Shown here piece by piece: positions 2,198 to 25,993 of a stretch of DNA of 64,000 bases. This DNA is from Elusimicrobiota bacterium. Lineage in GTDB: Bacteria; Elusimicrobiota; Elusimicrobia; UBA1565; UBA9628. The notes under the pieces were generated by a model. The model ran no database searches. It saw only the letters and a program-made list of their open reading frames with translations, and was not told the origin of the DNA. How positions within the stretch are numbered: position 1 is the stretch's first letter; each line of letters begins with the position of its first letter. The position numbers were made by a program, and so were the translations under genes. The stretch covers positions 1,486 to 65,485 of the forward strand of contig JACQPJ010000036.1 in the NCBI GenBank assembly GCA_016207605.1, written 5' to 3'.

Positions 2198-2241
2198 TAG
2201 GTCCAAAGACCATTATCAAAAGTTGATCTGGATCATATACT
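2198..2241 (+). promoter_or_regulatory. shared cis-module: TAGGTCCAAAGACC box (2198-2211), TTATCA -35-like (2213-2218), palindrome TTGATCTGGATCA (2223-2235), TATACT -10-like (2236-2241) 6 nt before the ATG
   Basis: Read directly. The same box-plus-palindrome arrangement recurs upstream of the genes starting at 9461, 13640 and about 25938. The spacer is AT-rich in a GC-rich genome. Confidence 0.5.
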
Positions 2242-2247
2242 ATCTTT

Positions 2248-3582
2248 ATGGCGCGCGAGCTGTTCGTCGACGTCGTCGTGGGAGCCTGGGCCGCGACGCT
2301 GCCCATGGCCGCGGCGGCCTCGATCGTGGGCGCTGCGGGCGTCTTCGGAAACGCGCCGATGAGGGCGCCGGTGATCGTGACCACCTTGGCCCTGGACATG
2401 ACCGGGGACGCGCTGGAGCTCAATGCCGTTGACGCTCTGAGAAACGCGCCCGACAACGCGCCCCTGCTCGTGGCCGCGGCGCTCCGAGAGCACGCGGCGG
2501 AACTTCCGGCCGGGCGGGCCGTCGTCGTTCACGACATGAGGGCCGTCGGCGTCTTTCCCAGCGGGCGCCGCGCCCTGTTCGTGCCGCTCGATCGCAACTC
2601 CGGCCCGGCCAATCTCAAAGCCGCGCGGATCGTCGAGAGCCTGCAGAGCGTCGCCGGCCACGCGGCAAGCTTGGTCGCCCGGCCCCATGCTGGCCCCGCG
2701 AACGCAGCCGCTCTGCACGCGCTCACGGACGCCTTCTACGACCTCCGCGCCAGCGCCGAGGCATCGGACGCCTCCGCCGAAGAACTCGTCCCGGACGATC
2801 TCGACGCGCAGATGCGGACCCGTTGGATCCGCGATCGGGAATACGACGCGCTTCTCCAGAACCACCGGCAGACGCGCGGCCCGCTTCTGGGCCGCCTTCC
2901 GGCGGAGCTGGCGGACGCTTTAGGCCCCTCCCGGCCGACCGACGCGGCCGTGCGCGCGATCGCCTCCGTCCTGCGCGCGGGAATTCGAACGAACTCGGAC
3001 GGGAACGTCCTGAGGGAGAGCGCCCAGACGGCCGCCGAAGCTGCGTCCCGCGTCGCGCCGGGCGTGCGCGTCTTCTACGCCGACAGCGGGAGCAAGGGAG
3101 ACGTCTACAGACTCGAGGCCGGCGGCCGCTCGTTCGCCCTCAAAATCTACCGCCAAGGCTCCGCCCAGGACGAATTCAGGGCGCTGACCTTCTTCGAGGC
3201 GATGGGCGCTCGCGACAGCATGCGCTCCCATGCCGCCGGAATCTTCGATCCGCAAGCCCCCCAAGCGGCGACCTGGCTGCTTTCCGAATGGATCGACCCG
3301 CGCCGTGCATTGACCCTGGAGGACTGGCTGGCGCGCGGGAGTCGTTGGATGCATGACATCGCCGAGGAGTACGGCGTCTACGTCAAGTTCTCGCATGACC
3401 GAATCCAAGGCATCCTGGTGGATCTCGGGGACGCCGTGCACAAAGACGACGCCTCCCTGGTTACGCCCTCTGAATTCAGGCTCAGCACGGCTTATCTGAA
3501 GGGCGGATTGGTTCGCTTTATCGCGCCGTGGAAGCACCTCCTCTTGCCGCCGTCCGGAGAGCAGCCGCGCCCGCCGCGATAG
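2248..3582 (+). CDS. hypothetical protein with hydrophobic N-terminus and a C-terminal region carrying protein-kinase-like motifs
   Basis: 444-aa ORF with a leaderless-type promoter. The C-terminal third shows a G-loop-like DSGSKGDVYRL, a FALKIY lysine, QDEFRALTFFE, and FSHDRIQGILVDLGD (HxD..DxG, atypically compressed). No family is confidently recognised. Confidence 0.55.
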   Translation: MARELFVDVVVGAWAATLPMAAAASIVGAAGVFGNAPMRAPVIVTTLALDMTGDALELNAVDALRNAPDNAPLLVAAALREHAAELPAGRAVVVHDMRAVGVFPSGRRALFVPLDRNSGPANLKAARIVESLQSVAGHAASLVARPHAGPANAAALHALTDAFYDLRASAEASDASAEELVPDDLDAQMRTRWIRDREYDALLQNHRQTRGPLLGRLPAELADALGPSRPTDAAVRAIASVLRAGIRTNSDGNVLRESAQTAAEAASRVAPGVRVFYADSGSKGDVYRLEAGGRSFALKIYRQGSAQDEFRALTFFEAMGARDSMRSHAAGIFDPQAPQAATWLLSEWIDPRRALTLEDWLARGSRWMHDIAEEYGVYVKFSHDRIQGILVDLGDAVHKDDASLVTPSEFRLSTAYLKGGLVRFIAPWKHLLLPPSGEQPRPPR

Positions 3583-3595: not shown

Positions 3596-4861
3596 CTATT
3601 TGGCGGCGCCGGAGCGCTTGACGGAGGCGACGAGGCGCTCCAGGCGGTCGAGGCCGGCGTGCACGGACTTCTCCGAGGGGCCGAAGGAGAAGCGCACGTA
3701 GGAGCGGAAGCGCGAGCCGCGGCCCGAGCGCCTCTTGCCGGGGTTGACGTCGAAGAACTCCCCGGGGACGGTGATGACCTTGGCCTCCAGGCCCTTGCGA
3801 AAGAAGCCCATCCCGGTGTTGAGGGGCTTGGGCAGGCCCTCCACGTCGCCCCAGCAGTAGAAGGTGCCCTGCGGCGGGGCGTCGAGGCGCACGCCCATGG
3901 CCGTCAGGCGCTCCACCATCAAGTCGCGCTTGGGGCGGAAGGCGTCCGAGATGGCCTTGGCCTCGCCCTCGGCGCGCTTCAAGTCCACGAGCTCGACGGC
4001 CGCGCGCTGGAGCGGGCGCGAGCCGCCGCCGTCTAAAAAGGAGCCCGCCGAGGACACCGCCTGGATCACCGGCTTGGGCGCCAGGATCCAGCTCACGCGC
4101 AGGCCGGGATAGCGCCAGTTCTTGGTCAGTCCGTCCAGGATCACCACCGGATCGCGGTCCACGTCCTCGACGCAGGCGGCGGCGCTCAAGGGGCAGGCGC
4201 CGTCCCAGACGTAGTGGGAATAGAACTCGTCGAGGATCAGGGCGCAGTCGAGCTCGCGCGCCGCGGCCGTCCAGCCGGAGAGCTCCTCGCCGGAGACCAC
4301 CTGTCCGGTGGGGTTGCAGGGATTGGAAGCCAGCACCGCGCCCAGCCCCCGGCCCAGGACCTCGCGCCGGAACTCCGCGGCCGGGAAGGCGTAGCCGCGC
4401 TCCGGCTCGCGCAGGATGGGGATGGAGGCGAAGGAGCGGAAGACGTCGAGAAGCTCCTCGTAGGCCGTGTAGTCCGGCAGGAAATGGCCCAAGTTGACGT
4501 GGCCCAGCGCCGCGGCTACGCGCGTGAGCGCCGCGCGCCCCCCGCCCGCGATGGCCACGTTCTCGGCGCCGTAGCGGCTCCCCCGCCCGCGGCGGTAGCG
4601 CGCGTTGTAGAGGCCGGCCACGGCCTCGCGCAGCTCCCAGATGCCGGGGATGGGCGCGTACTCCAGGTCCCCGGGCAGCACCGGCACGGACTTCAGGCGC
4701 GGCGGGCCGCCCGGCAGAGGCCCCACCTCCGGCATGCCCTGGCCGAGGTTGGACCAGCCGGGGTCGTCCGGGGAGTAGCCGGCCGCGGCCGCCTCGGTCA
4801 TCACGTAGATGACCCCGGTCCGGGGCACGGCGCGAAACGACGGGATGAGGGGTTCGCTCAT
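3596..4861 (-). CDS. PLP-dependent aminotransferase, class I/II (aspartate/aromatic type)
   Basis: 421 aa. Motifs: SNPCNPTG, a LTKNWRYPGLRVSW lysine motif, and overall fold-type I layout. Confidence 0.85.
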   Translation of the reverse strand: MSEPLIPSFRAVPRTGVIYVMTEAAAAGYSPDDPGWSNLGQGMPEVGPLPGGPPRLKSVPVLPGDLEYAPIPGIWELREAVAGLYNARYRRGRGSRYGAENVAIAGGGRAALTRVAAALGHVNLGHFLPDYTAYEELLDVFRSFASIPILREPERGYAFPAAEFRREVLGRGLGAVLASNPCNPTGQVVSGEELSGWTAAARELDCALILDEFYSHYVWDGACPLSAAACVEDVDRDPVVILDGLTKNWRYPGLRVSWILAPKPVIQAVSSAGSFLDGGGSRPLQRAAVELVDLKRAEGEAKAISDAFRPKRDLMVERLTAMGVRLDAPPQGTFYCWGDVEGLPKPLNTGMGFFRKGLEAKVITVPGEFFDVNPGKRRSGRGSRFRSYVRFSFGPSEKSVHAGLDRLERLVASVKRSGAAK

Positions 4862-4870
4862 GGGATCCGC

Positions 4871-4906: not shown

Positions 4907-5656
4907 ATGACGGACCGGACGAATTCCCCTGCAAAAAAGCGGCGCCGCCCCCTCATCGCGATCAATTGCGATTACGATCCCGGAAAACCGGGCGCCCGCA
5001 TACGTCGGCAAGCCACGCTCTACATGCCCTACATCGAGGCCGTCGTCGAGGCCGGAGGCCTTCCCCTGCTCGTGCCGCCCTCTCCGCCCGGGGTCCTGAA
5101 GGAATACCTGGCCCGAGCCGATGGAATCCTGTTCACGGGCGGCCTGGACTATCCGCCAAGCTTCTACAGCCAGACGGCCCGGCCCGAAGTCGTCGTCCAG
5201 CCCCTCCGGCGCGCCGAGAGCGACCGCAGCCTCATGCGCTTGGTTTTGGATTCCTCAAAGCCGGCCATGGGGATATGCGCCGGCCTCCAGCTCATGAACA
5301 TCACGAAAGGCGGGGCTCTCATCCAGCACCTGCCCAACGCGCCCGAGCACAAGGCGGTCCATGCGGAAAAGGACTCGGCCCACTCCGTATCCGTGCTCTC
5401 CGGCACCCGCCTGCGGCGCATCTTCGGCGCGGGCTCGATCACGGTCAACTCCTCGCACCACCAGGCCGCGGACCCGCGGCGCTTGGCGCCCGGGCTGAGG
5501 GTGGCCGCCAAGGCGCCGGACGGCACCATCGAGGCGCTCGAGCTTCAAGACGCCAAGGGCCGCTTCTTTTTGTTCGTCCAGTGGCACCCCGAGCGCATCC
5601 CCGACAGCGAGCACAGGCGCCGGCTCTTCAGGGCCTTCGTGGCGGCCTGCGGCTAG
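4907..5656 (+). CDS. gamma-glutamyl-gamma-aminobutyrate hydrolase family protein (peptidase C26, class I glutamine amidotransferase-like)
   Basis: The track ORF 4214..5656 is trimmed to the in-frame ATG at 4907, because its upstream part is antisense to the aminotransferase. Motifs: GICAGLQLMN nucleophile elbow, FVQWHPE His/Glu motif, PLIAINCDY N-terminus. Confidence 0.8.
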   Translation: MTDRTNSPAKKRRRPLIAINCDYDPGKPGARIRRQATLYMPYIEAVVEAGGLPLLVPPSPPGVLKEYLARADGILFTGGLDYPPSFYSQTARPEVVVQPLRRAESDRSLMRLVLDSSKPAMGICAGLQLMNITKGGALIQHLPNAPEHKAVHAEKDSAHSVSVLSGTRLRRIFGAGSITVNSSHHQAADPRRLAPGLRVAAKAPDGTIEALELQDAKGRFFLFVQWHPERIPDSEHRRRLFRAFVAACG

Positions 5657-7458
5657 GGCTTCCGATCCGTCCGGTAGATCGGATAGAGGTCCTTGCGCTC
5701 GTCCCAGGAAGAGTGGCGGCGATAGAAAAAGGCCAGCCGAGCCTTGGAATCCTTGGCAAAATCCGGGTCGCCGGCGAGCTTGGCTTCGAACGTCTCCTTC
5801 AGCTCGGGGTCCTTGGCCAGCATCTCGCGCGCCGCCGCCTCGACGACGTAGTCCTCCATGTATTCCTTCTGCTCGAAGGCCATGTTGAAAAACCCCCATG
5901 CCGCCAAGGAATCCGGGCCCCGGGGATCGAGAAGATGCGCCAGCAAACGCGCGCCCCTCTGCGCGGAGGGAACATATAAGGAACCGGCGGGCAACGAACG
6001 CGTCTCCGACGTCCAGGAGCCTTTCAAGTCGAGCCTCTGGCGGCCTTCCACGGATCCCGCAGCGAATTTTGTCTCGGTCGCGCGGAACACCTCGACCGGC
6101 AGGGAAACGGCCTCCGCGATCACGTCGCAAGAAAAGCCGTGCCGCTTGAGCTTTTCGGACACGAGCCCCGCCCAGGCGGCGGGCACCACGTAGCCCCCCT
6201 TGGGAAGCCGCGCGCGGACGGCCGGCCGCAACTCGTCGAACAAAGGGATATTCCAGATCCGCGGCGCGGAGTCGTCGTAGCGGATCCAGGGCTGGCCCGA
6301 AACCGTGGACGGCTCCCGGACGTAGGCATAGCCCCGAAAGCCGATCGGCCGGGATTTCCCGGTGCTCTCGAGCGCCAACGCCACCTCGGCGGGGCCCCCG
6401 CGGCGGTCCTCCGCATCCTGAGCCTCGGCGCCCCGGATCCATCCCGCGCCGTCTTGCGCCGCGAGCTCCAGGAAGTCCAGGACCACGTCCCGCGTCGCGC
6501 GCACCCGCGCGGCGTAGTCCTTCCAGGAATGGGTCTCCACCAGCACCGCCAGGCGGTTGCGCAGCGGCCAATACCCATCGCTGAACCGAGGCGGGGAGAC
6601 GTCCACGGAGAAGCCGGACGCGGGGTCGTCCTTCCTGTTGAGCGCGGGATAGAACTCGATGATGGGGAGATGTCCTTGAGCCTGGAGCTTCTTAAAAACG
6701 GCGTCGCGCGCGGCCGCCGCCGGGCCGCGCAGGCGCGCCGGCCCGTCCTGGGTCGGCGCGACCAGAACGGCCACGTCGTGCTCGAACTTCGATCCGTCCG
6801 TCGTGTGCAGGTCCATGTATAAGATGGGATCCCACGCCGCCAGCAAAGCGAGCATCGCGGCCATCTCCGGAGTGTCCGCCTTGGCGTAGTCGCGATTCAA
6901 GTTCAGGTTCTGAGCCGTCACGCGCCACCCCATCTCCTCGGGGCCGTTCTGGTTGGGGCGATTGTTGGGGCCGAAGCGCTCGTGGCCGTCCGGGTTGAAG
7001 ACCGGGACGAAGACGAGGGTCACGCGCTCCAGCACGCCCGGCAGGACCGTCCCGTCCAGGAGCTCGCGCAGGAGCCAGAACCCCGCGTCCTTGCCCTCGA
7101 TCTCTCCAGGGTGGATGCCGCCCTGGACCATGACGACGACGCGGCTGCCGGCGCGCGCCGACGCGGGATCGAGCGCGCCGTCGGCCGAAGCCGCCAAAAA
7201 GACCATCGGCCGGCCCTCCGCCGTCGTCCCGAACCGCCCGCAGCTCACCCGCCCCGGGTAGCGCGCCGCGAAGGCCCCGCAGAGGGCCTCTGCCTCCGCA
7301 TAGCGCCCCGTCCGCCTCCAGCCGCTCCTCTCGGCAACGGTGGTCAAGGACGCCTGCGCCGAGACAAGCGCGGGACAAAAAACCGCCAAAAACGCCCAAA
7401 GCGGCATGCCGCGCCGCGAGAGGGCCCGGAATAGCTTACGGAGAGGGGAATCGTTCAC
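5653..7458 (-). CDS. secreted M14-family zinc carboxypeptidase
   Basis: 601 aa. It has an N-terminal signal-like segment (PLWAFLAVFCPALVSAQA), GGIHPGEIEG (HxxE zinc motif) and YMDLHTTDG (second His). It starts 8 nt after the stop of the ATP-grasp gene at 7467, so it is probably co-transcribed. Confidence 0.75.
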   Translation of the reverse strand: MNDSPLRKLFRALSRRGMPLWAFLAVFCPALVSAQASLTTVAERSGWRRTGRYAEAEALCGAFAARYPGRVSCGRFGTTAEGRPMVFLAASADGALDPASARAGSRVVVMVQGGIHPGEIEGKDAGFWLLRELLDGTVLPGVLERVTLVFVPVFNPDGHERFGPNNRPNQNGPEEMGWRVTAQNLNLNRDYAKADTPEMAAMLALLAAWDPILYMDLHTTDGSKFEHDVAVLVAPTQDGPARLRGPAAAARDAVFKKLQAQGHLPIIEFYPALNRKDDPASGFSVDVSPPRFSDGYWPLRNRLAVLVETHSWKDYAARVRATRDVVLDFLELAAQDGAGWIRGAEAQDAEDRRGGPAEVALALESTGKSRPIGFRGYAYVREPSTVSGQPWIRYDDSAPRIWNIPLFDELRPAVRARLPKGGYVVPAAWAGLVSEKLKRHGFSCDVIAEAVSLPVEVFRATETKFAAGSVEGRQRLDLKGSWTSETRSLPAGSLYVPSAQRGARLLAHLLDPRGPDSLAAWGFFNMAFEQKEYMEDYVVEAAAREMLAKDPELKETFEAKLAGDPDFAKDSKARLAFFYRRHSSWDERKDLYPIYRTDRKP

Positions 7459-7466: not shown

Positions 7467-9461
7467 CTAATGAGCCGCGCCCTTGCCGTTGGGTGAGGGG
7501 GCCGCCGGAGCCACCTCGACCCGGAGATCATGGCGCCGCCTCTGCTCGGCGTAGTTGCGGCGAGCCTCTCGCGGCGTGTTCCCCTCAACCGCATAGAGCG
7601 CAACAGGGGTCAATTTCAAGGGGTCCGCCTGCAGGGGCTCGCCCGGGGCCTTGGCGCCCACTCCGGACGCCCAAACGACATCGGCCTGCCGCGCGTCCTC
7701 CCAACCCCGGATGCCCAGCAAAGTTCCCGCCCGCGGCGGAAACAGGATGCGCCCGTAAATGTGCTTCATCGGCTTGGGGCTGGCCGCGGGTCGACCCCGA
7801 ATCCCGAGCGCGATCATGGCATGCTCCAGCACCAAGTTGACGCCGAAGACCTCCTGATGGAACGGAACAAACGGCCGCCCCGGCACGCGCGGGTTGGCGT
7901 CAACGACGTACATGTCCCCGTGCCCGTCAATGATTATCTCGAAATGAAAGATGCCGTCCTCAGCGCCGGCGGCCCGGGCCAGCGCGACGGCCTCCTTCAA
8001 GGCGCGCGCCTGGCGCTTGTTGCCCAGCGTGGACGGGAGGGTGAGCCCCGTCAGCGCCGCGGACCCCCTGCGGGGCCGATGATTGTCGGCGATGCGGCCG
8101 TACAAAAGCTCGCCGTCGCGCAGCGCGAAGTCAACGGAAATCTGGCGGCCCTCAAGCAGACGCGCAAACGTGATGCCGAGGTCCGGGTCAAAGGTCTCGT
8201 TATGGACCATGCCGTCGGAACGCGCGGCGGACTCCGCGTGGATCTTGCGCGCGAGCCTGCGGGCCTGCTCGCGGGCCTCGGCGACGGTGCGCACCTTGAC
8301 GACGCCGTCGGAAGAGCCCCCGGTCGCGGGCTTGAGGACGGCGGGCACGCCGACTTCCCGCAAAGCCCGCTCCAGATCGCCCTCGTCCACTTCCCCCTCC
8401 CGCAAACGGACCCTCAGGGACGCAAGCACGGGCAAGCCGGCCCTTGCGGCCAAGACCGGCAGGTTCGCCTTGTCGCGCAGGGCCTGGACCGCCTCGTAAG
8501 ACATATGACGCAAGCCCCAGCGCTGGGCCATCAGCGCCGAGACGTCCACGTCGTCTTCGACGAAGGAAAGGATGCCGTCGCCGCGGATGCCGGCGCGCTC
8601 GACCGCCTCCACGGACAAGCGCGCGAGCCGCCGGCGCCGTTCCTGGTGGGTTTCGCCGTCTTTCGCGGGAATGTCAACCCGCACGACTTTCTCCACGAAC
8701 GGTTCGGGAGGATATCTCGTGTAGATATCCTCAGCCTCGTCCGATTCACGGAGGTAAACCAGGATCACCTTGACTCCGGCGGACGTGAGCATCTCCAGGT
8801 TCTTCTGGTGCTGAGGACCGACGGCATAGCCCACGACGATGAGGACCTTGTCCTGCATGGCGGCCAGGCGCTCGCCTTGGGAAACGGGCTCGGTCTCGCG
8901 GCGCCGGTGCGCGCCGTCAAAGCCGTCGCCGATGAGGGCCGGCGGCTGTTCCGCGAAAGCTTCGAGCTGGACCTGCGCGCCCTGTTGTTCCTCGAGCGCG
9001 GGAGCGTCGGGAGCGGGAGCGGTCGCCCGAAGTGATTGGGAATCGGCGGACGCCGGACGCGCCGAACGCTGAGACCGAAGCCTCCGGCCGCTCCGCGCGA
9101 AGGCGCCGCGAGCCGTGCCCGAGGGCCGCGCCGCAACGCGGGATTCCTCCCGGCCGGTCGCCGTCAATGCCGGAGCCGGCGCGAGCTCCGCGATTTGACC
9201 CGCGGCGGCGGCCCCGGGCTGGGCGAGGACAAACGGCTCGGGCAACCCTTCGAATCCGGCGCCCAAGACAACCTCCAGCGGCGCCGCGTCCTCCAACGGC
9301 AGAGATTGAATCTCAATCGCCGGGCTTTCGGCGACGACGTTCAGCACTCGCGATTGCCCGAAAGACGCCGTCCGCGACCCCGCGAAGAGGACCGCGCCCG
9401 CGGCCCATCCCGCCGCCAGGAAACCGGAACCCCGCCGCCACGCGTTGTCTCGATGCATCAT
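7467..9461 (-). CDS. ATP-grasp domain protein with an N-terminal twin-Arg/hydrophobic export-like segment and a long Ala/Pro/Ser/Arg-rich linker
   Basis: 664 aa. Motifs: GVPAVLKPATGGSSDGVVKVRTVAEA (ATP-grasp Lys/Gly-rich loop), GIFHFEIIIDGHGDMYVVDANPRVPG (Mg/ATP-site E/D-x-N). The pre-domain is DKVLIVVGYAVG..GVKVILVY and the N-terminus is WRRGSGFLAAGWAAGAVLFAG. Confidence 0.75.
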   Translation of the reverse strand: MMHRDNAWRRGSGFLAAGWAAGAVLFAGSRTASFGQSRVLNVVAESPAIEIQSLPLEDAAPLEVVLGAGFEGLPEPFVLAQPGAAAAGQIAELAPAPALTATGREESRVAARPSGTARGAFARSGRRLRSQRSARPASADSQSLRATAPAPDAPALEEQQGAQVQLEAFAEQPPALIGDGFDGAHRRRETEPVSQGERLAAMQDKVLIVVGYAVGPQHQKNLEMLTSAGVKVILVYLRESDEAEDIYTRYPPEPFVEKVVRVDIPAKDGETHQERRRRLARLSVEAVERAGIRGDGILSFVEDDVDVSALMAQRWGLRHMSYEAVQALRDKANLPVLAARAGLPVLASLRVRLREGEVDEGDLERALREVGVPAVLKPATGGSSDGVVKVRTVAEAREQARRLARKIHAESAARSDGMVHNETFDPDLGITFARLLEGRQISVDFALRDGELLYGRIADNHRPRRGSAALTGLTLPSTLGNKRQARALKEAVALARAAGAEDGIFHFEIIIDGHGDMYVVDANPRVPGRPFVPFHQEVFGVNLVLEHAMIALGIRGRPAASPKPMKHIYGRILFPPRAGTLLGIRGWEDARQADVVWASGVGAKAPGEPLQADPLKLTPVALYAVEGNTPREARRNYAEQRRRHDLRVEVAPAAPSPNGKGAAH

Positions 9462-9468
9462 TCTTTTT

Positions 9469-9513
9469 ATTATAGCGAGAATTGACCTAGATCAACCAGG
9501 ACCTTTGGACCTA
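9469..9513 (-). promoter_or_regulatory. shared cis-module (gene orientation): TAGGTCCAAAGGTCC box (9499-9513), palindrome TTGATCTAGGTCAA (9482-9495), TATAAT (9469-9474) 7 nt before the ATG at 9461
   Basis: Read directly. The distance from box to -10 is 24 nt, identical to the module at 2198-2241. Confidence 0.5.
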
Positions 9514-9581
9514 CCTCCATCTAGGCCTAATGGCCCCGCGCTCAGCACGCGCCTGACGCGGCGCAACCGCCGCCGGCAAGC

Positions 9582-12500: not shown

Positions 12501-13640
12501 ATGCGCGGAGTCCTGCTCCCACAGCTCGAGCTGCTCGATCACGAGCTGGTTCCACCACTTGTAGTCGTTTCTGTTGTCGCTGAGCGCGGGCAGGCGGCCG
12601 GACTCCTCGACGCTGATGAACGTCACCTGGCTCAGGCACCTCTCGCGCTCGGCCGCGGACAGATGCCCGAACAGGTGATCCTTGACGGCCTGGCTCACCT
12701 TCATTTTCGTCACGTAGACGACATCCAAGCCGGGATCCCGCTCCACGGCATACATGAGCGCCCGGGCATCATAGGCCGGCTCGCCCTTGATGTTCTTGCG
12801 GGTCTGCTCGTCGAACGACAGGGACTGGAAATAGATGACCATCCGAGAGACCTTGTCCTTCGCCGCTTGGTCCCACGCCGAAAGGATCTCCCGCTGCTCC
12901 CAAAACTTCTCTATTTGGCTGCGAAGAATCTCCGGAAACTCCCGATATTTTCGCTGCATGTATTCAAGAAGCTTCCGCGGAAACGACCGCTCATCGGCCT
13001 TGGCCGCGCGGGCAAGCCGCGACGACTGGGCCGCGGGAGACGCGGAACGGGATGCTTCGTCTCCGAGAACCGGGTCTGCGGGAGCGCGGGTCTCGCCCTC
13101 GCCCCTTACCCCCTCCTCGCCAAACGGCCTTCTCGCGTCCTCAACGGCGTCGATCAGCGGCTGGGCATGGGCCTGCGGCTCATCCATCACCGGCTTCTCG
13201 TTGTCAACCGCACGACGCAGCTGTTCTGCCGCGCCCCGGACGAGGCGCCTCTCGCGACGTCCGCCATTGGGGGGCAATGGCTTGCCCGAACGTGCCGTGC
13301 GGGAAGCCTCATGGGCCGCAGGCCCGGCAGAGCCCGACGGCTGTGCGGCATGGAGGTAAGAATTCTGCATTTCTGCCGAGCGCGCAAAAAAATCCGTAAG
13401 CGTCCTCTCCATGGCTTCGAAATCCGTCCGAGATAGACTGTCGATGGGCACTGGAGCGGACACGGGAGGGCCGAACATGGTCCCTAAAAGCGGCATTTCA
13501 AGCCCGCCTCCCCCGAACCTGTAGACGCCGAGTTCCCCGCCCTCAACGGCAAAAGCGCGCGGACCCGCAAGCGTCAGGCCGAGGAGAACGAGCCAAGCCC
13601 AGACAGCGGGACTGCGCGTCAATGCCGCTCGACGTGCCAC
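9582..13640 (-). CDS. very large exported protein with a PGM1-like (pre-ATP-grasp plus ATP-grasp) peptide-ligase module and a second, weaker ATP-grasp-like C-terminal module
   Basis: 1352 aa with a GTG start. Signal-like N-terminus: RRAALTRSPAVWAWLVLLGLTLAGPRAFA. Module 1: VVYVTKMKVSQAVKDHLFGHL..TFISVEE, KLNNGVSGLGNVAVF, PSTQLRVQVNGKVLVHTTHDQ, GFMGVDNA..MYKVEVNPRAGGFTH. The C-terminal part (NRIVVHTSLGKKPQEF, AVVVESSAEP) parallels the C-terminus of the 13740..17081 protein. Confidence 0.7.
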   Translation of the reverse strand: MARRAALTRSPAVWAWLVLLGLTLAGPRAFAVEGGELGVYRFGGGGLEMPLLGTMFGPPVSAPVPIDSLSRTDFEAMERTLTDFFARSAEMQNSYLHAAQPSGSAGPAAHEASRTARSGKPLPPNGGRRERRLVRGAAEQLRRAVDNEKPVMDEPQAHAQPLIDAVEDARRPFGEEGVRGEGETRAPADPVLGDEASRSASPAAQSSRLARAAKADERSFPRKLLEYMQRKYREFPEILRSQIEKFWEQREILSAWDQAAKDKVSRMVIYFQSLSFDEQTRKNIKGEPAYDARALMYAVERDPGLDVVYVTKMKVSQAVKDHLFGHLSAAERERCLSQVTFISVEESGRLPALSDNRNDYKWWNQLVIEQLELWEQDSAHRPEWPGGLEEPVKAALSAEYEKRRATETPEARLQAKSKAAQSAQRERRATKETLAARLNAKFKELGDRLPEKDLSLADMVMLPENRAVREAIAKAAEAAQAVRAQARAAVEPGAADRGYPVKVVPFIAQKSEWGLIADLRDSFGLRTTLDGPLEVDILDNKSVQREIFREIISQHPELNMHMADGFEHIYDLTDLARKGAALWHRHPKLKRLMVKLNNGVSGLGNVAVFLQGGEASKSLTEQERYELILRTLQRMKKSPVGKAYFRQMKEFGAVVEEFLDWIPVSPAPSTQLRVQVNGKVLVHTTHDQDLDHGVFIGGRQPANDAYRADMMRGDRVIAQTLWRDYGLVGFMGVDNAARRGKTGNRWRMYKVEVNPRAGGFTHSARAVMVMTGARPDGEGRLVLEDGTPVYSHSTDHAIIAGLIGLDEQELEEFLRFMGPYQKLHLILGLGWKANMGATAHTVASRQAATEGLGRLIKRAWVRALDRTLRRSGYPPLKLRDRPAADKPKVAILGAPTPRNLALLAEACTLFPGDFLLVDRRDFVKKDQFVSAGLSYNSKTGEYVLATYKRKPQAVAHVFDVTRPTVDQLTVRTLALAGAVDENEVKVPDTLAFLNERHPLLRKNFAPAVKKRVQRKIRLAPFNRDQVQRTLSRWLTDHREDIGNRIVVHTSLGKKPQEFVAEQFKGARAGAEDQRREGDDEDQPQNEEDEPRIFTPDQGAQIADYVLELQRKLGKKGAVVVESSAEPLFMKFEAVRVPGKGVQFGFDKRLYKSDRDDEDYALQMKEQTEEDSNWDYWFKLYGLDDAATLYKLPGIKEKKTRYERLKEDVKALISAVFRSMPGQDYLVLRIGFWPGYTDEEDGESRPLRLRPVLLGVQGSEDPSETRQIDEMKGDLRAQREREVGALLRDGTPVLRARAKSMEARAMGRDSRQVRISRQRLQTLVERVGETDRPAALRQLLRLLGDAESAPRSP

Positions 13641-13650
13641 GCGTAAATCG

Positions 13651-13727
13651 TATCTAGATCCGCCCGCGGGCGACAGGGCCTTTGGTCCCAGGCCGGGCTG
13701 GAGAAAAGACCTAGATCCTCCTAGGTC
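13651..13727 (-). promoter_or_regulatory. degenerate copy of the shared cis-module: GATCTAGATA (13651-13660), GGGACCAAAGGCC (13677-13689), GACCTAGGAGGATCTAGGTC (13708-13727)
   Basis: Read directly in the 99-nt spacer between the genes at 13740..17081 and 9582..13640. It is less conserved than the other copies. Confidence 0.35.
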
Positions 13728-13739
13728 GAAAGTCCCATG

Positions 13740-16700: not shown

Positions 16701-17081
16701 TTCGCGCCCGCCCCGCAGGACGCGCAGCCGCGGAGGGGCGGGGACGGGCTCCGCTACGTGGCGCGACGCCGCGCCGTGAAGATGCGGTCCCGCAAGGACC
16801 CCGGCCATGGCTGCGGCCGCGGGCAGGCCCGCCGCGCTGACGGACAGCGGCGGCACCGCCAGAAGCTGAAGAACCGTCGGCAAATAGGTGAAAGTCACCG
16901 GTTCTGAAAACGCGTCCGCGGACGCCGCAAGACCGACGGGCTGCTCCACGATCCCCTCGGGAACGGAACGGCCCTCCAGCGCCCCGGGGGCGGCGTCCGC
17001 CTGCGGCCGTCCCGTCAGCAGCAGCGCGCCGGCCAGCAGGACTCTCAACCCTCTGAAGGCTGATCTGGTTCGGCGGCCCAA
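13740..17081 (-). CDS. very large exported protein, paralogous in architecture to 9582..13640: a PGM1-like ATP-grasp module plus a second ATP-grasp-like module
   Basis: 1113 aa with a TTG start. N-terminus: GRRTRSAFRGLRVLLAGALLLTGRPQADA. Module 1: AIMVTSLPMEEDLQGHLLHGL..RIRFYSFGE, KIVLKAEDGASGEGNRFLVF, PSPSIQLRIGPGRQVFVESTHDQ, LGVDFMAI..KLVYVETNLRKTGTTYPF. Module 2: VPTTLFIP, DSIVIRTSQGGQERVF, GAVMVESGKV, DFLRVRVAL..RWVLLDL. Confidence 0.7.
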   Translation of the reverse strand: MGRRTRSAFRGLRVLLAGALLLTGRPQADAAPGALEGRSVPEGIVEQPVGLAASADAFSEPVTFTYLPTVLQLLAVPPLSVSAAGLPAAAAMAGVLAGPHLHGAASRHVAEPVPAPPRLRVLRGGREGAQGGEAVRVPAGAAPEEAAQALGALGGAARLPSEAGAAVADAVIDGRGDSRGPSEASVVEADAAALALHRKALEREAALAEVQSSPRRVRVILPGQELNAVMTKTPYSRHSEGRSAALALAAADPDEAAIMVTSLPMEEDLQGHLLHGLPDPSGTRDRIRFYSFGERDDADPRKSFTQKLLRRADVLGAVARAVAEFRERGFSAFVDPYNVTSAVEAVAEFLGLPVYGALAEHWVLGHKSIGRALAERVGLTVVRGINGIPGGRTFDALTDAIVRLRRATGDKKIVLKAEDGASGEGNRFLVFRGPNEPGTIATKLAREAASHRHRAYFQTFQGMGGVLEQFIEGAAHYPSPSIQLRIGPGRQVFVESTHDQILKNGAWVGARYPADVRYRRALHEAGLRVGRALAEQGVLGNLGVDFMAIPAQIARDRYGMEVSAEELESGWKLVYVETNLRKTGTTYPFRLAMHLTGARVNEEGLLERLDGGGLVAYEAYTGEDGFPGLALTSRSEFLAAFHRSGLAFDPGPKAGVVMDNPRAIFSPQTAGKISYVAIAGDAQGVADLKRRFLEWLREYELGLVLRAAGDRLEEPRDADPFEGDVEVVRGALTFQNLALAKASGGRVHLVLENGWLSKGGERLGVRRSLRYDPAADAFVLASYRRPLRASYYVAADQAGAELGSGLAIPVAGRTVEDRLLARGLAAAAGVDVPTTLFIPGSRHAVQDLLRPGAAGIGADMTRTSRRGIRGALADWIARSGERVEDSIVIRTSQGGQERVFQGARGRLAEIVEYVLDLLDELGSSGAVMVESGKVWDYVFDVPAAIHPSGRVDISPVRMLYRARSSEGRRRPLLEPTDASGLRGFDPHPGGFGHPENESYWRKAEAALQSAIEQAAAAVRAYEERTLPANVRTDFLRVRVALMRNGAAPRWVLLDLLGHRDRSPEVRRARWGADLAPQREEAEALAVQRVAAMSARADAGGRPAARSRAVWTRP

Positions 17082-18629: not shown

Positions 18630-18709
18630 GAAGCCTCCTCGGAAATCCATTCACAAACAGCAGGTGCCGGATTTTATCAAGTTTCTGCGGTTGGCGACGC
18701 ATCGGCGTC

Positions 18710-22408: not shown

Positions 22409-25400
22409 GGGGCCTTAGGGGCCTTAAGGTCTTTTGCGGCCGCGAGCTCTTCGGGCGTGAAGAGCCAGCCCGGACCATAGATGACGACAACCGCCCCCAC
22501 GAGGACGCACCAGAGGGGAACCAAATTCATCGCGACCGGAACGGCCAGGGACAGGAAAACCGCCTGGGCCGCGCCCGTCACCAGCATCTCCACGGAACCC
22601 TGGATCGCGAACAGCCTTTCCCGGGCGTCCCTTCCCGCGGCGTCATATCCTTGCTGCTGAATCGTGGTCAGCGTCCAGGTGCTGAATCCCACCCGAGGTG
22701 CGATGAAATACATGTGGAACAGAAAGGACCCCAACGCGGCGAGAAGCACGCCGGGCCAAAAGGCATGGGAAACGACCGCCGCGCCAAGGGGAACCAGCAG
22801 CACGGGCAAGGTAGACCAGAACTGCACCTTAAAGAAAGGGCCATACTTGGCGTAACTTTCTTTTGCGTTTTTAGGCGGTTGCCAATCATGCAGGCTCGAG
22901 GGGGTCATGCGCCGCGCCCAGCCCAGCAGGACCGACAAAAAGCGCTCGATGGGGCGGCCGAGCCGCTTCGTGGCGGTCCAGCCGCGAAACGCGCTCAGCA
23001 TGGCTAAGGCGCCCAGCATGCCGACGCTCGTCAAAGCGACGGAGGAAAAGACGCCCCAGGCCTGGGATATCTTGTCGTCGCCGGACACGAGGTAGTGAAG
23101 GCCGAAATACAAAAGCACGACGCTGGGCACGCCCTCGTAGATGGTGCGGTCGCTGGAATTCATCCCGAAGCGCTTGTAAAAAAAAGCTTTTTCGAGCGCC
23201 AAGACGCCAGCCGCCCAGAATTCGGCAAGCACTGAGCCGATGCGGACCGGTTCCGGGTTGCCCATATCCTCGTTTTTAGGCATCGCACGAAGGTAGAAAG
23301 GTAGGCCGATCACGCCCAGCGCGAGACAGGCCGCGGCCATCGCCAAGGCTAAGGCGACGGCCGCCGACCCGGAAGCGCCCGTCGCCAGCAGAACGGCTCC
23401 AAAGGACAGGGCAAGAGGGCTGACGAGACGCAGTCCCGCGCTCCAAGTCTGACGGAACACGCCCCAATCCTTGAAATCGTCTTTATCCACGGGGAAATGG
23501 TGGCGCCGGGCAAGGGCGCCGATCCCGCCCTCGTCGCTGTCTAGGAGACACGCGAACGCGGTGACGACTCCCTGCAGGAACGTGAGGGCGAAATAGGCCG
23601 TGTCAAACGCCGGGCCGCCAAGCAGGAGAGCGGCGGCGGGAACGCCCAACGTCCAGATCAGCGTCGTCGCCGCCATCCCGCCGGGGATGACGGCCCTCAG
23701 GCGCAGGCGTGCGAGTATGGGCGCGGCGATCAGGACCACCAAGGCCACGGGCAGGATATAGCCCCACGTGGCGGTGGCCGCGGTCCAAGCGCCGCCCTTC
23801 ACCAAGCCGAGAGGAATCAAAAAAGAGGACCGGACGATCAACTGCGCGAGGCCGGCGATCTGGCCGCGCATGTAGCCTTGCAGGATATGTTTGCCCCGCA
23901 GAGCCGCCGTCTCGCGGACTTCCTGGTGCGCTTTTTCCACATCCACCCGCGCGCCCGCGCGGTCGTCGCCCGGCCGGCGGACCACCTCTCCCTGCGCGGT
24001 TCGAACGTCCACGAAGATACTCGACATAAACTCCCTGGCGCGCTGATCAACCTGCGCGGGACTGTCTCCGTCCCTGGCGCGGATGGCGATGCGGGCGATG
24101 ACGTCGGCGGGGCCGAGAGAATCCCCCGGTCGTTTGAGCGGCAGAAACCGGACGGTCGGATCAGCCGAAAACGGCGCCACAATGCCGACCAGCGTGCCGG
24201 CAACCTCCGCGACCAGCTCTCGGGATTGAGCCTCCTGCGGGCGGCCCAGCCCCGGCGCCACGGCCGCGCCCAAAAGGGAGAAAAGCTGCGCCTCGACCAG
24301 CGCGGCGCCTTCGGCGGCGTGCAGGACGGAACCCCAAACGCCGCGCGAGACGTCCTCGATCCGGGGGCCCTCCGAAGTCCATGCCAGAACCGCGCTCACC
24401 GCGCCGGATCGGACGCCGAGCTTTTTCGCCGCCCGAAGGAGCGCGCCAACGAACTCATCGTCGCCGGGCCGCGAGGCAAGGACCGCGCCGTTTCGCGTCA
24501 GGCGGTCTGAAACGGCCGCTCGAACCGCTCGCAATTCCAGTCCCTCTTCGCCAAGGACCTCCTCAACGATGAGGTCCACCTGGCGCCGGGGGCCTTCCCA
24601 CTCGCGGTCCATCATGACGCCCTCGGGGTCAACGCGGGCGACCTGCCGCCATGCCTCGGCCGCCTCCTGTTCGCTGGAGGCGCGACGCTCAATGCCCTTC
24701 ACGCGCCGCGACCAAACGCGCGCCGCGACCATGGGTCCGCCGCCCATGTCGCGGAACGCCTTGACGGCGGCCTCAGGACTCGGCAGGTCGCTGCGCACCG
24801 TCGTCGCCTGCTCCGGGTCGCGCTTGAGGCTCTCACGCATCCCCGCGCGCTGCAAGCGGCGCACAGTCTCCAGCGAGTCGCCGAGCACGCGGGGACCGCC
24901 GCCTTGGTTGAGACGGTCTACGATGCGCCCCGCAAGCTCCTCGAAACCCTCCGCCGGCTGTACGGCGGCGAAAGGACGGCGTGCATGGCGACGGGCGATC
25001 TCCTCAAGAACGGCATCCGCCTGTTCCGGGGTCAAGCTGTCCGCGGACGCCGGCATGGCAGGCAGGACGCGTACTTTCCCATCGAGATCGCCGAGTCGGG
25101 ACCATTCGCTCCCATCCTCCAGCACATGAACCTTAACGCCATGCGCTTGGGCGACCCTCGCCCAAGTCCTGGCATACTCAGACCCGTTGGACCCGACCAA
25201 GAGGACGGCCCTGCCGCGGAGGGACGCGGAATCGCGCTTCGCCGGCCGCGCGGCGGCAGGAACGGCCGCGTCCTGCGCGGCCGGCGCGAGCCCCAAGCTG
25301 ACGCGCCCATCGTTGGCGCGCCCGGGCTCGCGCTCCTCCTCCTCCCCGAGGACGTCAGGGCTGTCGGCGCCTGAACGTTTCGCATCTCCCGGCGCCGCCG

Positions 25401-25938
25401 CCTGTCCGTCAAAACGAAGTCTGCCGGGATCGCGGAACCGGGCGCCGCGTTTGTCCTGGGCGTTAGAGACCCCGGAGAGCTCCTGGACTTGGGCCAGCCC
25501 GCCCGTGATGGATGGCTGCTCGGCCCGAGATCGAGGAGACGCGGTCCAATGCGCCGCTTGCGGCGCGCGGGCATGAGCGAGAAAGGCCGGGCGCGCAACG
25601 GTATGAACGGCAGCGCGCCGCAGCAAGCCGGCCGCATCCGCCGTGCCGTTGGCGGACAACTCGAAGACGCCGAAGGAATAGGCGCCGAAAAGCCCCGAAA
25701 AGCCGGCTTCCCCGGCGAAGGCGTCCGCCGCTGCCGGCGGAGTCAAGGCGACGTCGAGCCGGGGAAGAGATAAAACGACCGGGGCGGACGCCTCCCCCTG
25801 GGCCATGGCCTGGTAGCAGGGCAGGCCCGGGGACAGGACGACCAGGGACGCGGCGACAAGCGCGGCCGTCAACCGCTTAAAAACGCCCCGCTGGAAATTG
25901 ACCTGGATCATTTGATTGTAGTCAATTTTATTCAGCAA
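22405..25938 (-). CDS. paralog of 18710..22408: signal-like N-terminus, linker, ATP-grasp-like domain and C-terminal polytopic membrane domain
   Basis: 1177 aa. N-terminus: FKRLTAALVAASLVVLSPGLPCYQAMA. Central region: AVLLVGSNGSEY..GVKVHVLED, GGGPMVAARVWSRRVKGIERRASSEQEA. Multiple TM helices follow from about aa 700. The start is uncertain: TTG at 25938 or ATG at about 25911, and the palindromic motif overlaps the latter. Confidence 0.6.
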   Translation of the reverse strand: MLNKIDYNQMIQVNFQRGVFKRLTAALVAASLVVLSPGLPCYQAMAQGEASAPVVLSLPRLDVALTPPAAADAFAGEAGFSGLFGAYSFGVFELSANGTADAAGLLRRAAVHTVARPAFLAHARAPQAAHWTASPRSRAEQPSITGGLAQVQELSGVSNAQDKRGARFRDPGRLRFDGQAAAPGDAKRSGADSPDVLGEEEEREPGRANDGRVSLGLAPAAQDAAVPAAARPAKRDSASLRGRAVLLVGSNGSEYARTWARVAQAHGVKVHVLEDGSEWSRLGDLDGKVRVLPAMPASADSLTPEQADAVLEEIARRHARRPFAAVQPAEGFEELAGRIVDRLNQGGGPRVLGDSLETVRRLQRAGMRESLKRDPEQATTVRSDLPSPEAAVKAFRDMGGGPMVAARVWSRRVKGIERRASSEQEAAEAWRQVARVDPEGVMMDREWEGPRRQVDLIVEEVLGEEGLELRAVRAAVSDRLTRNGAVLASRPGDDEFVGALLRAAKKLGVRSGAVSAVLAWTSEGPRIEDVSRGVWGSVLHAAEGAALVEAQLFSLLGAAVAPGLGRPQEAQSRELVAEVAGTLVGIVAPFSADPTVRFLPLKRPGDSLGPADVIARIAIRARDGDSPAQVDQRAREFMSSIFVDVRTAQGEVVRRPGDDRAGARVDVEKAHQEVRETAALRGKHILQGYMRGQIAGLAQLIVRSSFLIPLGLVKGGAWTAATATWGYILPVALVVLIAAPILARLRLRAVIPGGMAATTLIWTLGVPAAALLLGGPAFDTAYFALTFLQGVVTAFACLLDSDEGGIGALARRHHFPVDKDDFKDWGVFRQTWSAGLRLVSPLALSFGAVLLATGASGSAAVALALAMAAACLALGVIGLPFYLRAMPKNEDMGNPEPVRIGSVLAEFWAAGVLALEKAFFYKRFGMNSSDRTIYEGVPSVVLLYFGLHYLVSGDDKISQAWGVFSSVALTSVGMLGALAMLSAFRGWTATKRLGRPIERFLSVLLGWARRMTPSSLHDWQPPKNAKESYAKYGPFFKVQFWSTLPVLLVPLGAAVVSHAFWPGVLLAALGSFLFHMYFIAPRVGFSTWTLTTIQQQGYDAAGRDARERLFAIQGSVEMLVTGAAQAVFLSLAVPVAMNLVPLWCVLVGAVVVIYGPGWLFTPEELAAAKDLKAPKAP

Positions 25939-25993
25939 ACACGGAAAATCACAGGGTCTTAAGACCTATTCCTTACGGACCAATGGACCTAGG
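25898..25993 (-). promoter_or_regulatory. shared cis-module upstream of and overlapping the start of gene 22405..25938
   Basis: In gene orientation it holds CTAGGTCCATTGGTCC (about 25977-25993), the perfect palindrome GGTCTTAAGACC (about 25955-25966), TTGACTACAATCAA (25912-25925) and TGATCCAGGTCAA (25898-25910). All were read directly; coordinates are +/-1 nt. Confidence 0.45.

What the first reader, a model, noticed from the sequence alone, without database searches (positions are those of the whole stretch)
2198..25993. Shared bipartite cis-element (GGTCC-N3-GGTCC box plus TTGAYCTRGRTCAA palindrome) links the ATP-grasp cluster to a distant kinase-like gene
Four AT-rich upstream regions carry the same pair of motifs:
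- 2198-2235: TAGGTCCAAAGACC ... TTGATCTGGATCA.
- 9482-9513 in gene orientation: TAGGTCCAAAGGTCC .. TTGATCTAGGTCAA.
- 25898-25993: CTAGGTCCATTGGTCC ... TTGACTACAATCAA, TGATCCAGGTCAA, plus the perfect palindrome GGTCTTAAGACC.
- 13651-13727: a degenerate version, GGGACCAAAGGCC ... GATCTAGATA.

Other observations:
- In the first two copies the box sits exactly 24 nt upstream of a -10 hexamer (TATACT or TATAAT) that lies 6-7 nt from the start codon.
- I did not notice the motifs elsewhere in the window by eye.
- They contain CTAG, a tetranucleotide usually avoided in bacteria.

Inference: this is a dedicated regulon with an activator-type direct repeat plus a repressor-type palindrome, or a specialised promoter class. 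It would co-control the gene at 2248 and the cluster.
Basis: seen in the sequence. Interest (0 to 1): 0.7.

Follow-up and report, generated by a model that had tools for sequence, protein, structure and literature searches.

The report
Shared operator boxes on cluster promoters
Four promoters of one gene cluster in an uncultivated Elusimicrobia bacterium carry the same short palindromic DNA boxes at fixed distances from the predicted transcription start, and similar boxes sit upstream of related genes in other Elusimicrobia, so this is most likely the landing site of a still-unknown regulator: a real predicted regulon, but a familiar kind of thing.

Summary
The reported motifs are real, non-random and confined to four upstream regions of one cluster in a 70% GC Elusimicrobia MAG contig. 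The description needs correcting.

- **The box.** The "GGTCC-N3-GGTCC direct repeat" is a dyad, T(A/G)GGNCC-W2-4-GGNCC. It occurs in arrays about 24 bp apart.
- **Position.** In all four promoters the proximal box is centred 30-31 bp upstream of a -10-like hexamer. That hexamer lies 6-7 nt before the start codon in three promoters and 13 nt before it in the fourth. This puts the boxes near -42, -66 and -90.
- **Leaderless transcripts.** Across 167 Elusimicrobia gene starts, TANNNT begins exactly at -12 in 33.
- **Conservation.** The same box at the same phased positions lies upstream of homologous giant ATP-grasp genes, M28 peptidases and a big1177 homolog in other Elusimicrobia loci. It is nearly absent from high-GC loci of other phyla.
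- **The palindrome.** (TT)GAYCTRGRTC(AA) fits the FNR/FixK consensus TTGA-N6-TCAA, overlaps the core promoter at variable register (-27 to +15), and is not conserved in relatives.

Best reading: activator-type operator arrays plus a genome-specific repressor-type operator. No regulator gene was found. "Kinase-like" is unverified, and that gene is adjacent to the cluster, not distant.

The parts
2174..2187 (+). Site 1 distal box, TAGGCCTTTCGACC, centred about -66.5 from ATG 2248
   Evidence: Sequence read. It forms a 36-bp inverted repeat with the proximal box (-22 kcal/mol, z -4.8 on the - strand).
2198..2211 (+). Site 1 proximal box, TAGGTCCAAAGACC, centred -42.5 and 30.5 nt before the -10
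2223..2236 (+). Site 1 palindrome, TTGATCTGGATCAT, centred about -18.5, in the spacer and abutting the -10
2236..2250 (+). -10-like TATACT (2236-2241), 6 nt, then ATG 2248 of g444: predicted leaderless start
   Evidence: TTATCA-17-TATACT; TANNNT peak at -12.
9524..9536 (-). Site 2 distal box, GGGCCATTAGGCC, centred about -67.5
   Evidence: hairpin-capable with the proximal box (z -2.8).
9499..9513 (-). Site 2 proximal box, TAGGTCCAAAGGTCC, centred about -43 and 31 nt before the -10
9482..9495 (-). Site 2 palindrome, TTGATCTAGGTCAA (exact TTGA-N6-TCAA), centred about -27, over the -35 region
9459..9474 (-). -10 TATAAT (9474-9469), 7 nt, then ATG 9461 of the 664-aa ATP-grasp protein, followed by the M14 gene
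13724..13735 (-). Site 4 box a, GGACTTTCGACC, centred about -89.5
13700..13727 (-). Site 4 perfect inverted repeat GACCTAG-N6-CTAGGTC (13708-13727), running into degenerate box b GGTCTTTTCTCC (13711-13700, about -65.5). It also scores as terminator-like just after the grasp1113 stop.
13676..13688 (-). Site 4 proximal box c, GGACCAAAGGCCC, centred -42 from GTG 13640
13638..13661 (-). Site 4 core promoter: GATCTAGATA palindrome remnant (13660-13651), -10-like TACGAT (13652-13647), 6 nt, GTG 13640 of big1352. This start gives the signal peptide MARRAALTRSPAVWAWLVLLGLTLAGPRAFA.
26001..26014 (-). Site 3 possible third box, GGTCCCCAGGGCCC, with a G+C spacer, centred about -89.5
   Evidence: weak.
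25977..25991 (-). Site 3 box a, TAGGTCCATTGGTCC, centred about -65 from the predicted TSS at 25918
25955..25968 (-). Site 3 box b, TAGGTCTTAAGACC (perfect palindrome GGTCTTAAGACC), centred 30.5 nt before TAAAAT, about -42.5
25898..25930 (-). Site 3 core: -10-like TAAAAT (25930-25925), palindrome TTGACTACAATCAA (25925-12, about +1), ATG 25911 of big1177, palindrome ATGATCCAGGTCAA (25911-25898, about +14.5)

Best explanation
These are transcription-factor operator arrays on four sigma-70-type, mostly leaderless promoters of one gene cluster. The cluster encodes giant secreted ATP-grasp ligases, their paralogs, an M14 peptidase, an NhaC-type transporter and the orphan gene g444.

Proposed mechanism:
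- Each promoter has a -10 hexamer 6-7 nt before the start codon (13 nt in site 3). The scan called only a partial -35 at site 1 (TTATCA) and none at the other three.
- In place of a good -35 there is a dyad box, T(A/G)GGNCC-W2-4-GGNCC, centred 30-31 bp upstream of the -10 (about -42).
- One or two further boxes lie about 24 bp apart, at about -66 and -90.
- A dimeric or tetrameric regulator bound to these boxes would recruit RNA polymerase from the -42 site (class-II-type activation). The upstream boxes would give cooperativity.
- A second element, the palindrome (TT)GAYCTRGRTC(AA), lies inside the core promoter at variable register (-27 to +15). It would block polymerase when occupied, so it is a repressor-type operator. 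It may serve a second regulator or be a low-affinity site of the same one.

Shown here: the sequences, their positions, their enrichment, and the conservation of the box and its phasing across Elusimicrobia.

Inferred: the transcription start sites, the existence and identity of the protein(s), and the direction of regulation.
For: Enrichment in the window:
- Searches give 3-5 hits against 0.2-1.5 expected.
- Hits lie in the four regions, apart from a few near-matches inside coding sequence.

Identical geometry in all four promoters (own reading):
- The box centre is 30-31 nt before the -10.
- The boxes are 22.5-25 bp apart.

Leaderless inference:
- TANNNT starts at -12 in 33 of 167 Elusimicrobia gene starts, against about 2 per other position.

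Conservation:
- The strict box occurs 30 times in 296 kb of Elusimicrobia loci.
- 14 of these lie within 120 nt upstream of a gene start, against about 1.6 expected.
- High-GC loci of other phyla have 1 hit in 111 kb, none near a start.

Phasing:
- Box positions over 23 promoters peak at -44..-41 (9), -68..-64 (8) and -92..-88 (4).

Box-bearing genes in relatives belong to the same neighbourhood:
- ATP-grasp homologs.
- M28 peptidases. Two loci carry the strict box; three more show a GGCCC-TTC-GGRCC variant by eye.
- An unknown family of about 830 aa.
- A big1177 homolog with TAGGTCTTTTGGCCTA (36% identity over 540 aa).

Controls:
- Other leaderless-type promoters in the window and loci lack the box (C26, Fic385, orf312 and others).
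Against: - No regulator gene was found in the window or in any related neighbourhood.
- There are no experimental TSS data.
- The related loci were all fetched around ATP-grasp genes, so specificity outside this neighbourhood rests mainly on about 40 kb of the window and on L006.
- Start codons in the relatives were assigned by a simple rule.
- GGNCC is common in high-GC DNA, and the relaxed box definition has background (0.77 per kb).
- A spacing of about 24 bp is not an integral number of helical turns.
- The -10 for site 3 was chosen among two candidates.
- The palindrome is not conserved in relatives, and no close relative of this genome was available.
Confidence: 0.62

Rival explanations
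1. One regulator recognises both motif types. All elements are built from one half-site family, GAYCYAG/CTRGRTC. It is arranged as overlapping palindromes (TTGACC-TA-GGTCAA), as spaced inverted repeats (GACCTAG-N6-CTAGGTC) and as GGNCC-W3-GGNCC boxes. The locus would then be controlled by a single protein with several binding modes, not by an activator plus a repressor.
For: GATCTAGGTC occurs both in the site 2 palindrome and in the site 4 inverted repeat. CTAGGTC and TAGGTC recur in both element types. 7 of the 16 TAGGTC hexamers in the window lie in the four regions.
Against: The box is conserved across Elusimicrobia but the palindrome is not. The outer TTGA/TCAA of the palindrome has no counterpart in the boxes. 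The two elements occupy functionally opposite promoter positions.
Confidence: 0.15
2. This is a specialised promoter class. The box would be the upstream recognition element of an alternative (ECF-type) sigma factor rather than a transcription-factor site.
For: There is a fixed 30-31 nt distance from box centre to the -10 in four promoters, and 3 of the 4 lack a scan-called -35.
Against: The -10 elements are sigma-70-like (TATAAT, TATACT, TAAAAT, TACGAT) and match the general TANNNT peak. The box is a dyad. It recurs at -66 and -90, and in some relatives only there. Its centre at -42 lies upstream of a normal -35.
Confidence: 0.08
3. These are RNA-level elements. The inverted repeats formed by adjacent boxes would act as intercistronic hairpins (terminators, processing or stabiliser structures) in long cluster transcripts. 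At site 1 the hairpin would lie in the 5' leader of the divergent carboxyltransferase mRNA.
For: The site 4 repeat is terminator-like directly after the grasp1113 stop. Sites 1 and 2 fold better than shuffles (z -4.8 and -2.8). Sites 2 and 4 lie between co-directional genes.
Against: Sites 3 and 4 have z about 0. Only site 4 has a T-run. The phasing is relative to the downstream start codon and -10, not to upstream stops. Boxes in relatives are often single dyads of 12-13 nt that cannot form stable hairpins. There are no Rfam hits.
Confidence: 0.08
4. These are dispersed intergenic repeats (REP/MITE-like, or ends of a mobile island next to the tRNA at 27724) unrelated to regulation, or a chance or compositional effect of AT-rich spacers.
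For: Sites 1 and 3 face inward at the two ends of a roughly 24-kb block whose genes have lower GC3 (about 0.80, against about 0.90 for housekeeping genes) next to a tRNA and a Fic gene.
Against: No copies occur in the other roughly 20 intergenic regions of the window. Internal copies sit at operon starts. The aminotransferase inside the block has GC3 0.95. The box is conserved at phased positions upstream of homologous genes in distant genomes. Shuffles exclude chance.
Confidence: 0.04

Closest known systems
LysR-type regulator (LTTR) promoters, with a recognition site near -65 and an activation site near -35/-45
   Same: There are two dyad sites about two helical turns apart, at about -66 and -42, on a promoter with a poor -35. 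The proximal site overlaps the position of RNA polymerase contact. The logic is cooperative and multi-dimer.
   Different: No LTTR gene is adjacent, whereas LTTR genes are usually divergent from their target. The box (TAGG-N8-CCTA / GGNCC-W3-GGNCC) does not fit the canonical T-N11-A. A third site at -90 is common. The promoters are leaderless. The comparison rests on my own knowledge of LTTRs, not on a test.
CRP/FNR/FixK boxes and class II activation (site centred at -41.5)
   Same: The palindrome matches TTGA-N6-TCAA exactly at 9482 and 25912 and with one mismatch at 2223 and 25898. The other element, the GGNCC box, occupies the class II position near -42.
   Different: The FNR-like palindrome sits at -27 to +15, not at -41.5. 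Its central CTRG is conserved, unlike the free N4-N6 of FNR sites. No CRP/FNR-family gene is in the window. The -42 box has no sequence similarity to CRP/FNR sites.
CtsR operator (tandem heptads A/GGTCAAA-NAN-A/GGTCAAA) and SARP heptad repeats overlapping the -35
   Same: The short GGTC-containing repeat upstream of or overlapping the -35 region gives a superficial resemblance of TAGGTCCAAAGGTCC to GGTCAAA repeats.
   Different: The period is 8 bp here, against 10-11 bp. The element here is symmetric at the GGNCC level. The target genes are unrelated (clp/heat-shock for CtsR; antibiotic clusters for SARPs).
GntR/HutC-type operators such as the DasR dre (GGTCTAGACC core)
   Same: They share 12-16 bp palindromes built from GGTC/GACC with an A/T centre. 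GGTCTTAAGACC at 25955 resembles this type.
   Different: The centre is 3-4 nt rather than 2. Most boxes are GGNCC-W3-GGNCC. There is an array architecture. No GntR gene is nearby.

Membership tests
CRP/FNR/FixK binding site (anaerobox) | Palindrome TTGA(T)-N4-6-(A)TCAA | tested here: met
   9482 TTGACCTAGATCAA and 25912 TTGATTGTAGTCAA match exactly. 2223 and 25898 have one mismatch at the outer base. Site 4 keeps only the core GATCTAGAT.
CRP/FNR/FixK binding site (anaerobox) | Position centred at -41.5 (class II) or -61.5 and further (class I) on activated promoters | tested here: not met
   The centres are about -18.5, -27, -15.5, +1 and +14.5 relative to the predicted TSS (reading). This is compatible only with a repressing role.
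CRP/FNR/FixK binding site (anaerobox) | A CRP/FNR-family regulator encoded by the genome | not testable with these tools
   None is in the 64-kb window. The rest of the MAG could not be retrieved.
CRP/FNR/FixK binding site (anaerobox) | Conservation of the site upstream of orthologs | tested here: not met
   No such palindrome was found near gene starts in 30 related loci.
LysR-type (LTTR) regulated promoter | Two sites near -65 and -35/-45 | tested here: met
   Boxes lie at about -66 and -42 in all four promoters. The positional peaks in relatives agree.
LysR-type (LTTR) regulated promoter | T-N11-A dyad motif | tested here: inconclusive
   The boxes read TAGG-N8-CCTA or GGNCC-W2-4-GGNCC. This is not the canonical 13-bp T-N11-A, but LTTR boxes vary.
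LysR-type (LTTR) regulated promoter | LTTR gene adjacent, usually divergent | tested here: not met
   No HTH_1/LysR_substrate protein is in the window or in the conserved neighbours.
Leaderless sigma-70-type promoter | -10 hexamer TANNNT ending 6-7 nt before the start codon, with no Shine-Dalgarno sequence | tested here: met
   Site 1 TATACT-6-ATG, site 2 TATAAT-7-ATG, site 4 TACGAT-6-GTG. The lineage-wide peak is 33 of 167 at -12. Site 3 is near-leaderless (about 7 nt) if TAAAAT is the -10.
Leaderless sigma-70-type promoter | Experimentally mapped TSS at the start codon | not testable with these tools
   No transcriptome data are available.
CtsR operator | Two GGTCAAA heptads with 3-nt spacing (10-bp period), upstream of clp or chaperone genes | tested here: not met
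   The repeat here is GGTCC-AAA-GGTCC with an 8-bp period. The downstream genes are ATP-grasp ligases and peptidases.
Intrinsic terminator | G+C-rich hairpin followed by a T-run | tested here: inconclusive
   Only the site 4 repeat qualifies. Its folding energy is no better than shuffles. Sites 1-3 lack the T-run.

The most novel reading that the evidence does not exclude
The box arrays may be the operator of an undescribed, phylum-specific regulator. This regulator would control, across Elusimicrobia, a so far uncharacterised extracellular system of giant signal-peptide-bearing ATP-grasp ligases, their paralogs and dedicated peptidases (M14, M28, C26). Binding would use dyads phased at about 24 bp and anchored at -42 of leaderless promoters. 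That would give a first handle, in the form of target genes and an operator, on transcriptional control in a phylum with almost no genetics.
Probability: 0.35. Interest if true: 0.55.

Novelty: new member of a known kind. Interest (0 to 1): 0.4.

Why it matters
Regulation in Elusimicrobia is essentially unstudied, because most lineages are known only from metagenomes. This finding offers three things:
- A conserved operator with strict phasing, which defines a testable regulon.
- Support for leaderless transcription being common in this lineage.
- A functional grouping of poorly annotated genes: giant secreted ATP-grasp proteins, M14/M28/C26 peptidases and the orphan g444.

It also corrects gene starts. 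For example, big1352 starts at GTG 13640 and has a signal peptide. The principle, a transcription-factor site array on a promoter, is textbook. The value is therefore local to this phylum and gene system.

Tried and rejected
Searches that found nothing usable:
- A single-protein scan of genome contigs with the 664-aa ATP-grasp protein found nothing.
- Word-index homolog searches for the ATP-grasp protein and for g444 returned only the proteins themselves.
- The NCBI contig of the MAG (87.8 kb) could not be fetched. Only short Logan contigs of the same organism were returned, so no genome-wide scan of this MAG was possible.
- A strict bipartite pattern scan of metagenome contigs gave 3 stretches (2 distinct sequences). 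They come from unrelated organisms of 61% and 45% GC and lie in apparently coding DNA, so I judged them chance.
- The Rfam gathering scan found only a tRNA.

The g444 gene:
- It has no Pfam, NCBIfam or PDB sequence match. Single-sequence AlphaFold gave pLDDT 38.9, so no fold search was run.
- A literature lead says SidJ-type kinase-fold glutamylases have Elusimicrobia homologs (PMC6858067). It found no support, because g444 does not hit SidJ chains in the PDB search.

The regulator:
- I looked for a regulator gene in the window and among conserved neighbours of 30 related loci. None was found.

Reinterpreted or rejected:
- My first reading was a 20-bp inverted repeat GRCCYAG-N7-TAGGTC as the core. 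I later reinterpreted it as the junction of two adjacent boxes.
- I rejected a mobile-island-ends reading and an alternative-sigma reading. See the rival explanations.
Full report
**Source and gene map**

The window is about 70% G+C. The protein encoded at 2248-3582 is identical to NCBI 'MAG: hypothetical protein HY552_04185 [Elusimicrobia bacterium]'. The same DNA occurs in Logan assemblies of SRR12113385.

ORF, GC3 and Pfam analysis gives a cluster that lies mostly on the - strand:
- big1177 (22405-25911) and its paralog big1232 (18710-22408). Both have signal peptides and are translationally coupled.
- An NhaC-type transporter (17097-18650).
- A 1113-aa ATP-grasp protein (13740-17081) and its paralog big1352 (9582-13640).
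- A 664-aa ATP-grasp protein (7467-9461), followed after 8 nt by an M14 peptidase gene (5653-7458).

Next to these lie a C26 gamma-glutamyl-hydrolase-like gene (4907-5656, +), an aminotransferase (3596-4861, -) and g444 (2248-3582, +). g444 therefore abuts the cluster and is not distant from it. No transcription-factor domain was found anywhere in the window.

**The observation**

Every quoted string is present. Against dinucleotide-preserving shuffles:
- The palindrome has 4 against 0.33 expected, 3 of them in the regions.
- GGNCCWWWGGNCC has 3 against 0.17 expected.
- GAYCYRGRTC has 6 against 1.48 expected, 4 of them in the regions.

CTAG is depleted (28 observed, about 68 expected), and a quarter of all copies lie in these roughly 400 nt.

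**What the elements are**

I first described this as a 20-bp inverted repeat, GRCCYAG-N7-TAGGTC. It is exact in all four regions, and with one mismatch allowed there are 8 matches on both strands against 0.18 expected.

Folding and a relaxed box scan then showed that this repeat is the junction of two neighbouring dyad boxes. The unit is T(A/G)GGNCC-W2-4-GGNCC.

Boxes come in arrays 22.5-25 bp apart:

| Site | Box centres relative to predicted TSS |
|---|---|
| 1 | -66.5, -42.5 |
| 2 | -67.5, -43 |
| 3 | (-89.5), -65, -42.5 |
| 4 | -89.5, -65.5, -42 |

In all four promoters the proximal box centre lies 30-31 nt before the first base of a -10-like hexamer:
- TATACT 2236-2241
- TATAAT 9474-9469
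- TAAAAT 25930-25925
- TACGAT 13652-13647

In sites 1, 2 and 4 the hexamer lies 6-7 nt before the start codon, with no Shine-Dalgarno sequence. For site 4 this selects GTG 13640 as the start. That start gives a textbook signal peptide, which the automatic call (48 codons shorter) lacks.

**Leaderless promoters**

Across 167 gene starts in the window and related Elusimicrobia loci, TANNNT begins exactly at -12 from the start codon in 33 cases. Every other position has about 2. A separate set of genes has Shine-Dalgarno-like words at -9/-10. This supports equating the start codon with the TSS for these promoters, and hence the -42/-66/-90 coordinates. No TSS has been measured.

**Comparative evidence**

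- The 664-aa ATP-grasp protein has no close relatives.
- An exhaustive HMMER search found distant relatives: 42-30% identity over the ligase domain, in much larger proteins.
- These come from Elusimicrobiota MAGs and Logan contigs. Their contigs were fetched.
- An alignment of the domain then retrieved 80 loci, about 28 of them from Elusimicrobia MAGs.

The strict box occurs 30 times in 296 kb of Elusimicrobia loci. Fourteen of these lie within 120 nt upstream of a called gene start, against about 1.6 expected. High-GC loci from other phyla have 1 hit in 111 kb, none near a start.

Measured from the start codon, box centres over 23 promoters peak at -44..-41 (9 promoters), -68..-64 (8) and -92..-88 (4). 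The promoters were selected for having a box but not for its position, so the phasing is an independent signal.

Box-bearing genes in relatives are:
- The ATP-grasp giants.
- M28 peptidases: the strict box near -42 in L025 and L067, and GGCCC-TTC-GGRCC variants by eye in L018, L019 and L028.
- A family of about 830 aa of unknown function.
- A big1177 homolog in L004 (36% identity over 540 aa) preceded by TAGGTCTTTTGGCCTA at about -65.5.
- A divergent pair of PrcB_C-like and ceramidase-like genes.

Leaderless-type promoters of unrelated genes in the same loci and in the window lack the box (C26, Fic385, orf312 and others). In the window's other 40 kb only one relaxed match lies near a gene start, and it is inside nuoG coding sequence.

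**The palindrome**

(TT)GAYCTRGRTC(AA) matches the FNR/FixK consensus TTGA-N6-TCAA (my own knowledge) exactly at 9482 and 25912. It lies at about -18.5, -27, -15.5, +1 and +14.5, so it is within the core promoter but not in register with it. It is not found near gene starts in any related locus.

A strict scan for box-plus-palindrome in metagenome contigs returned only unrelated coding DNA. The palindrome is therefore a feature of this genome. Its position fits a repressor-type operator, and it fails the positional test for a classical FNR activating site.

**Mechanism and rivals**

The best-supported model is a dimeric or tetrameric activator bound to phased dyad boxes. The proximal box at -42 would take the place of the weak or missing -35 element, as in class-II or LysR-like promoters. 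A second, genome-specific operator would occlude the core promoter.

Rivals are given separately with estimated weights:
- One protein recognising a common GAYCYAG half-site in both elements.
- An alternative-sigma promoter class.
- RNA hairpins. The site 4 repeat is terminator-like, sites 1 and 2 fold better than shuffles, and sites 3 and 4 do not.
- Mobile-element or REP-like repeats.

The main gaps are that no regulator gene was found and that neither the TSSs nor the rest of the MAG could be examined.

**Verdict**

The box is a phased dyad array rather than a direct repeat, the bipartite unit is not conserved, and 'kinase-like' and 'distant' are unsupported. This is a new motif and regulon of a familiar kind, of moderate interest mainly to people working on Elusimicrobia or on these ATP-grasp systems.

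Noticed in passing
window and loci L004-L070 (gene starts): Leaderless-type promoters appear common in this Elusimicrobia lineage. TANNNT begins exactly at -12 from the start codon in 33 of 167 gene starts. A second class of genes has Shine-Dalgarno-like words at -9/-10.
   Followed up: partly
window 5653-25911 (plus L004, L005): The cluster encodes paralogous giant proteins with signal peptides and ATP-grasp ligase domains, together with M14 and C26 peptidases and an NhaC-type transporter. Related loci add M28/M20 peptidases and MFS/PTR2 transporters. This suggests an extracellular peptide or poly-amino-acid ligation and trimming system of unknown product. The nearest named relatives are 'carnosine synthase' and L-amino-acid ligases.
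   Followed up: partly
window 22409-22431: The tandem box-like repeat GGGGCCTTAGGGGCCTTAAGGTC lies inside the 3' end of big1177, immediately upstream of the GTG of big1232. That GTG overlaps the big1177 stop as GTGA. No -10-like hexamer follows. It could be an internal operator or chance.
   Followed up: partly
window 2172-2248: The site 1 element fills the whole 75-bp spacer shared with the divergent carboxyltransferase gene (ATG 2172). A GATAAT on the - strand (2217-2212) would put the 36-bp inverted repeat (-22 kcal/mol, z -4.8) into that gene's 5' leader, right up to its start codon. The same regulator may therefore also affect the carboxyltransferase.
   Followed up: no
window 57809-57828 and 54107-54118: There are motif-like strings inside coding sequence. 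TTGATTTCGGTCAAAGGACC (an FNR-like palindrome fused to a box-like GGTC-AAAG-GACC) lies in the FecR-domain gene. An exact 12-mer copy of the site 3 TTGACCTGGATC lies in the CHASE2 cyclase gene. No promoter features follow either, so both are probably chance.
   Followed up: partly
window 27483-27575 and 27724-27806: The AT-rich promoter region of the Fic-domain gene (26028-27482) has an inverted repeat GTCACAAT (27494) ... ATTGTGAC (27551). A tRNA gene follows at 27724-27806. A second Fic gene (37002-38159) and an AAA_14/DUF4143 ATPase gene (35511-36680) lie nearby. DUF4143 ATPase genes also flank the related clusters in L004 and L006.
   Followed up: no
window about 46000-52000: AT skew is very high (0.37-0.44) across the distal nuo region, against less than 0.25 elsewhere. 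Long overlapping ORFs on the - strand (45742-48573, 47136-50381) were not resolved.
   Followed up: no
window 13496-13640: The automatic gene call in the Logan assembly starts big1352 48 codons too late (1304 aa). GTG 13640 gives a canonical signal peptide and fits the leaderless promoter geometry.
   Followed up: yes
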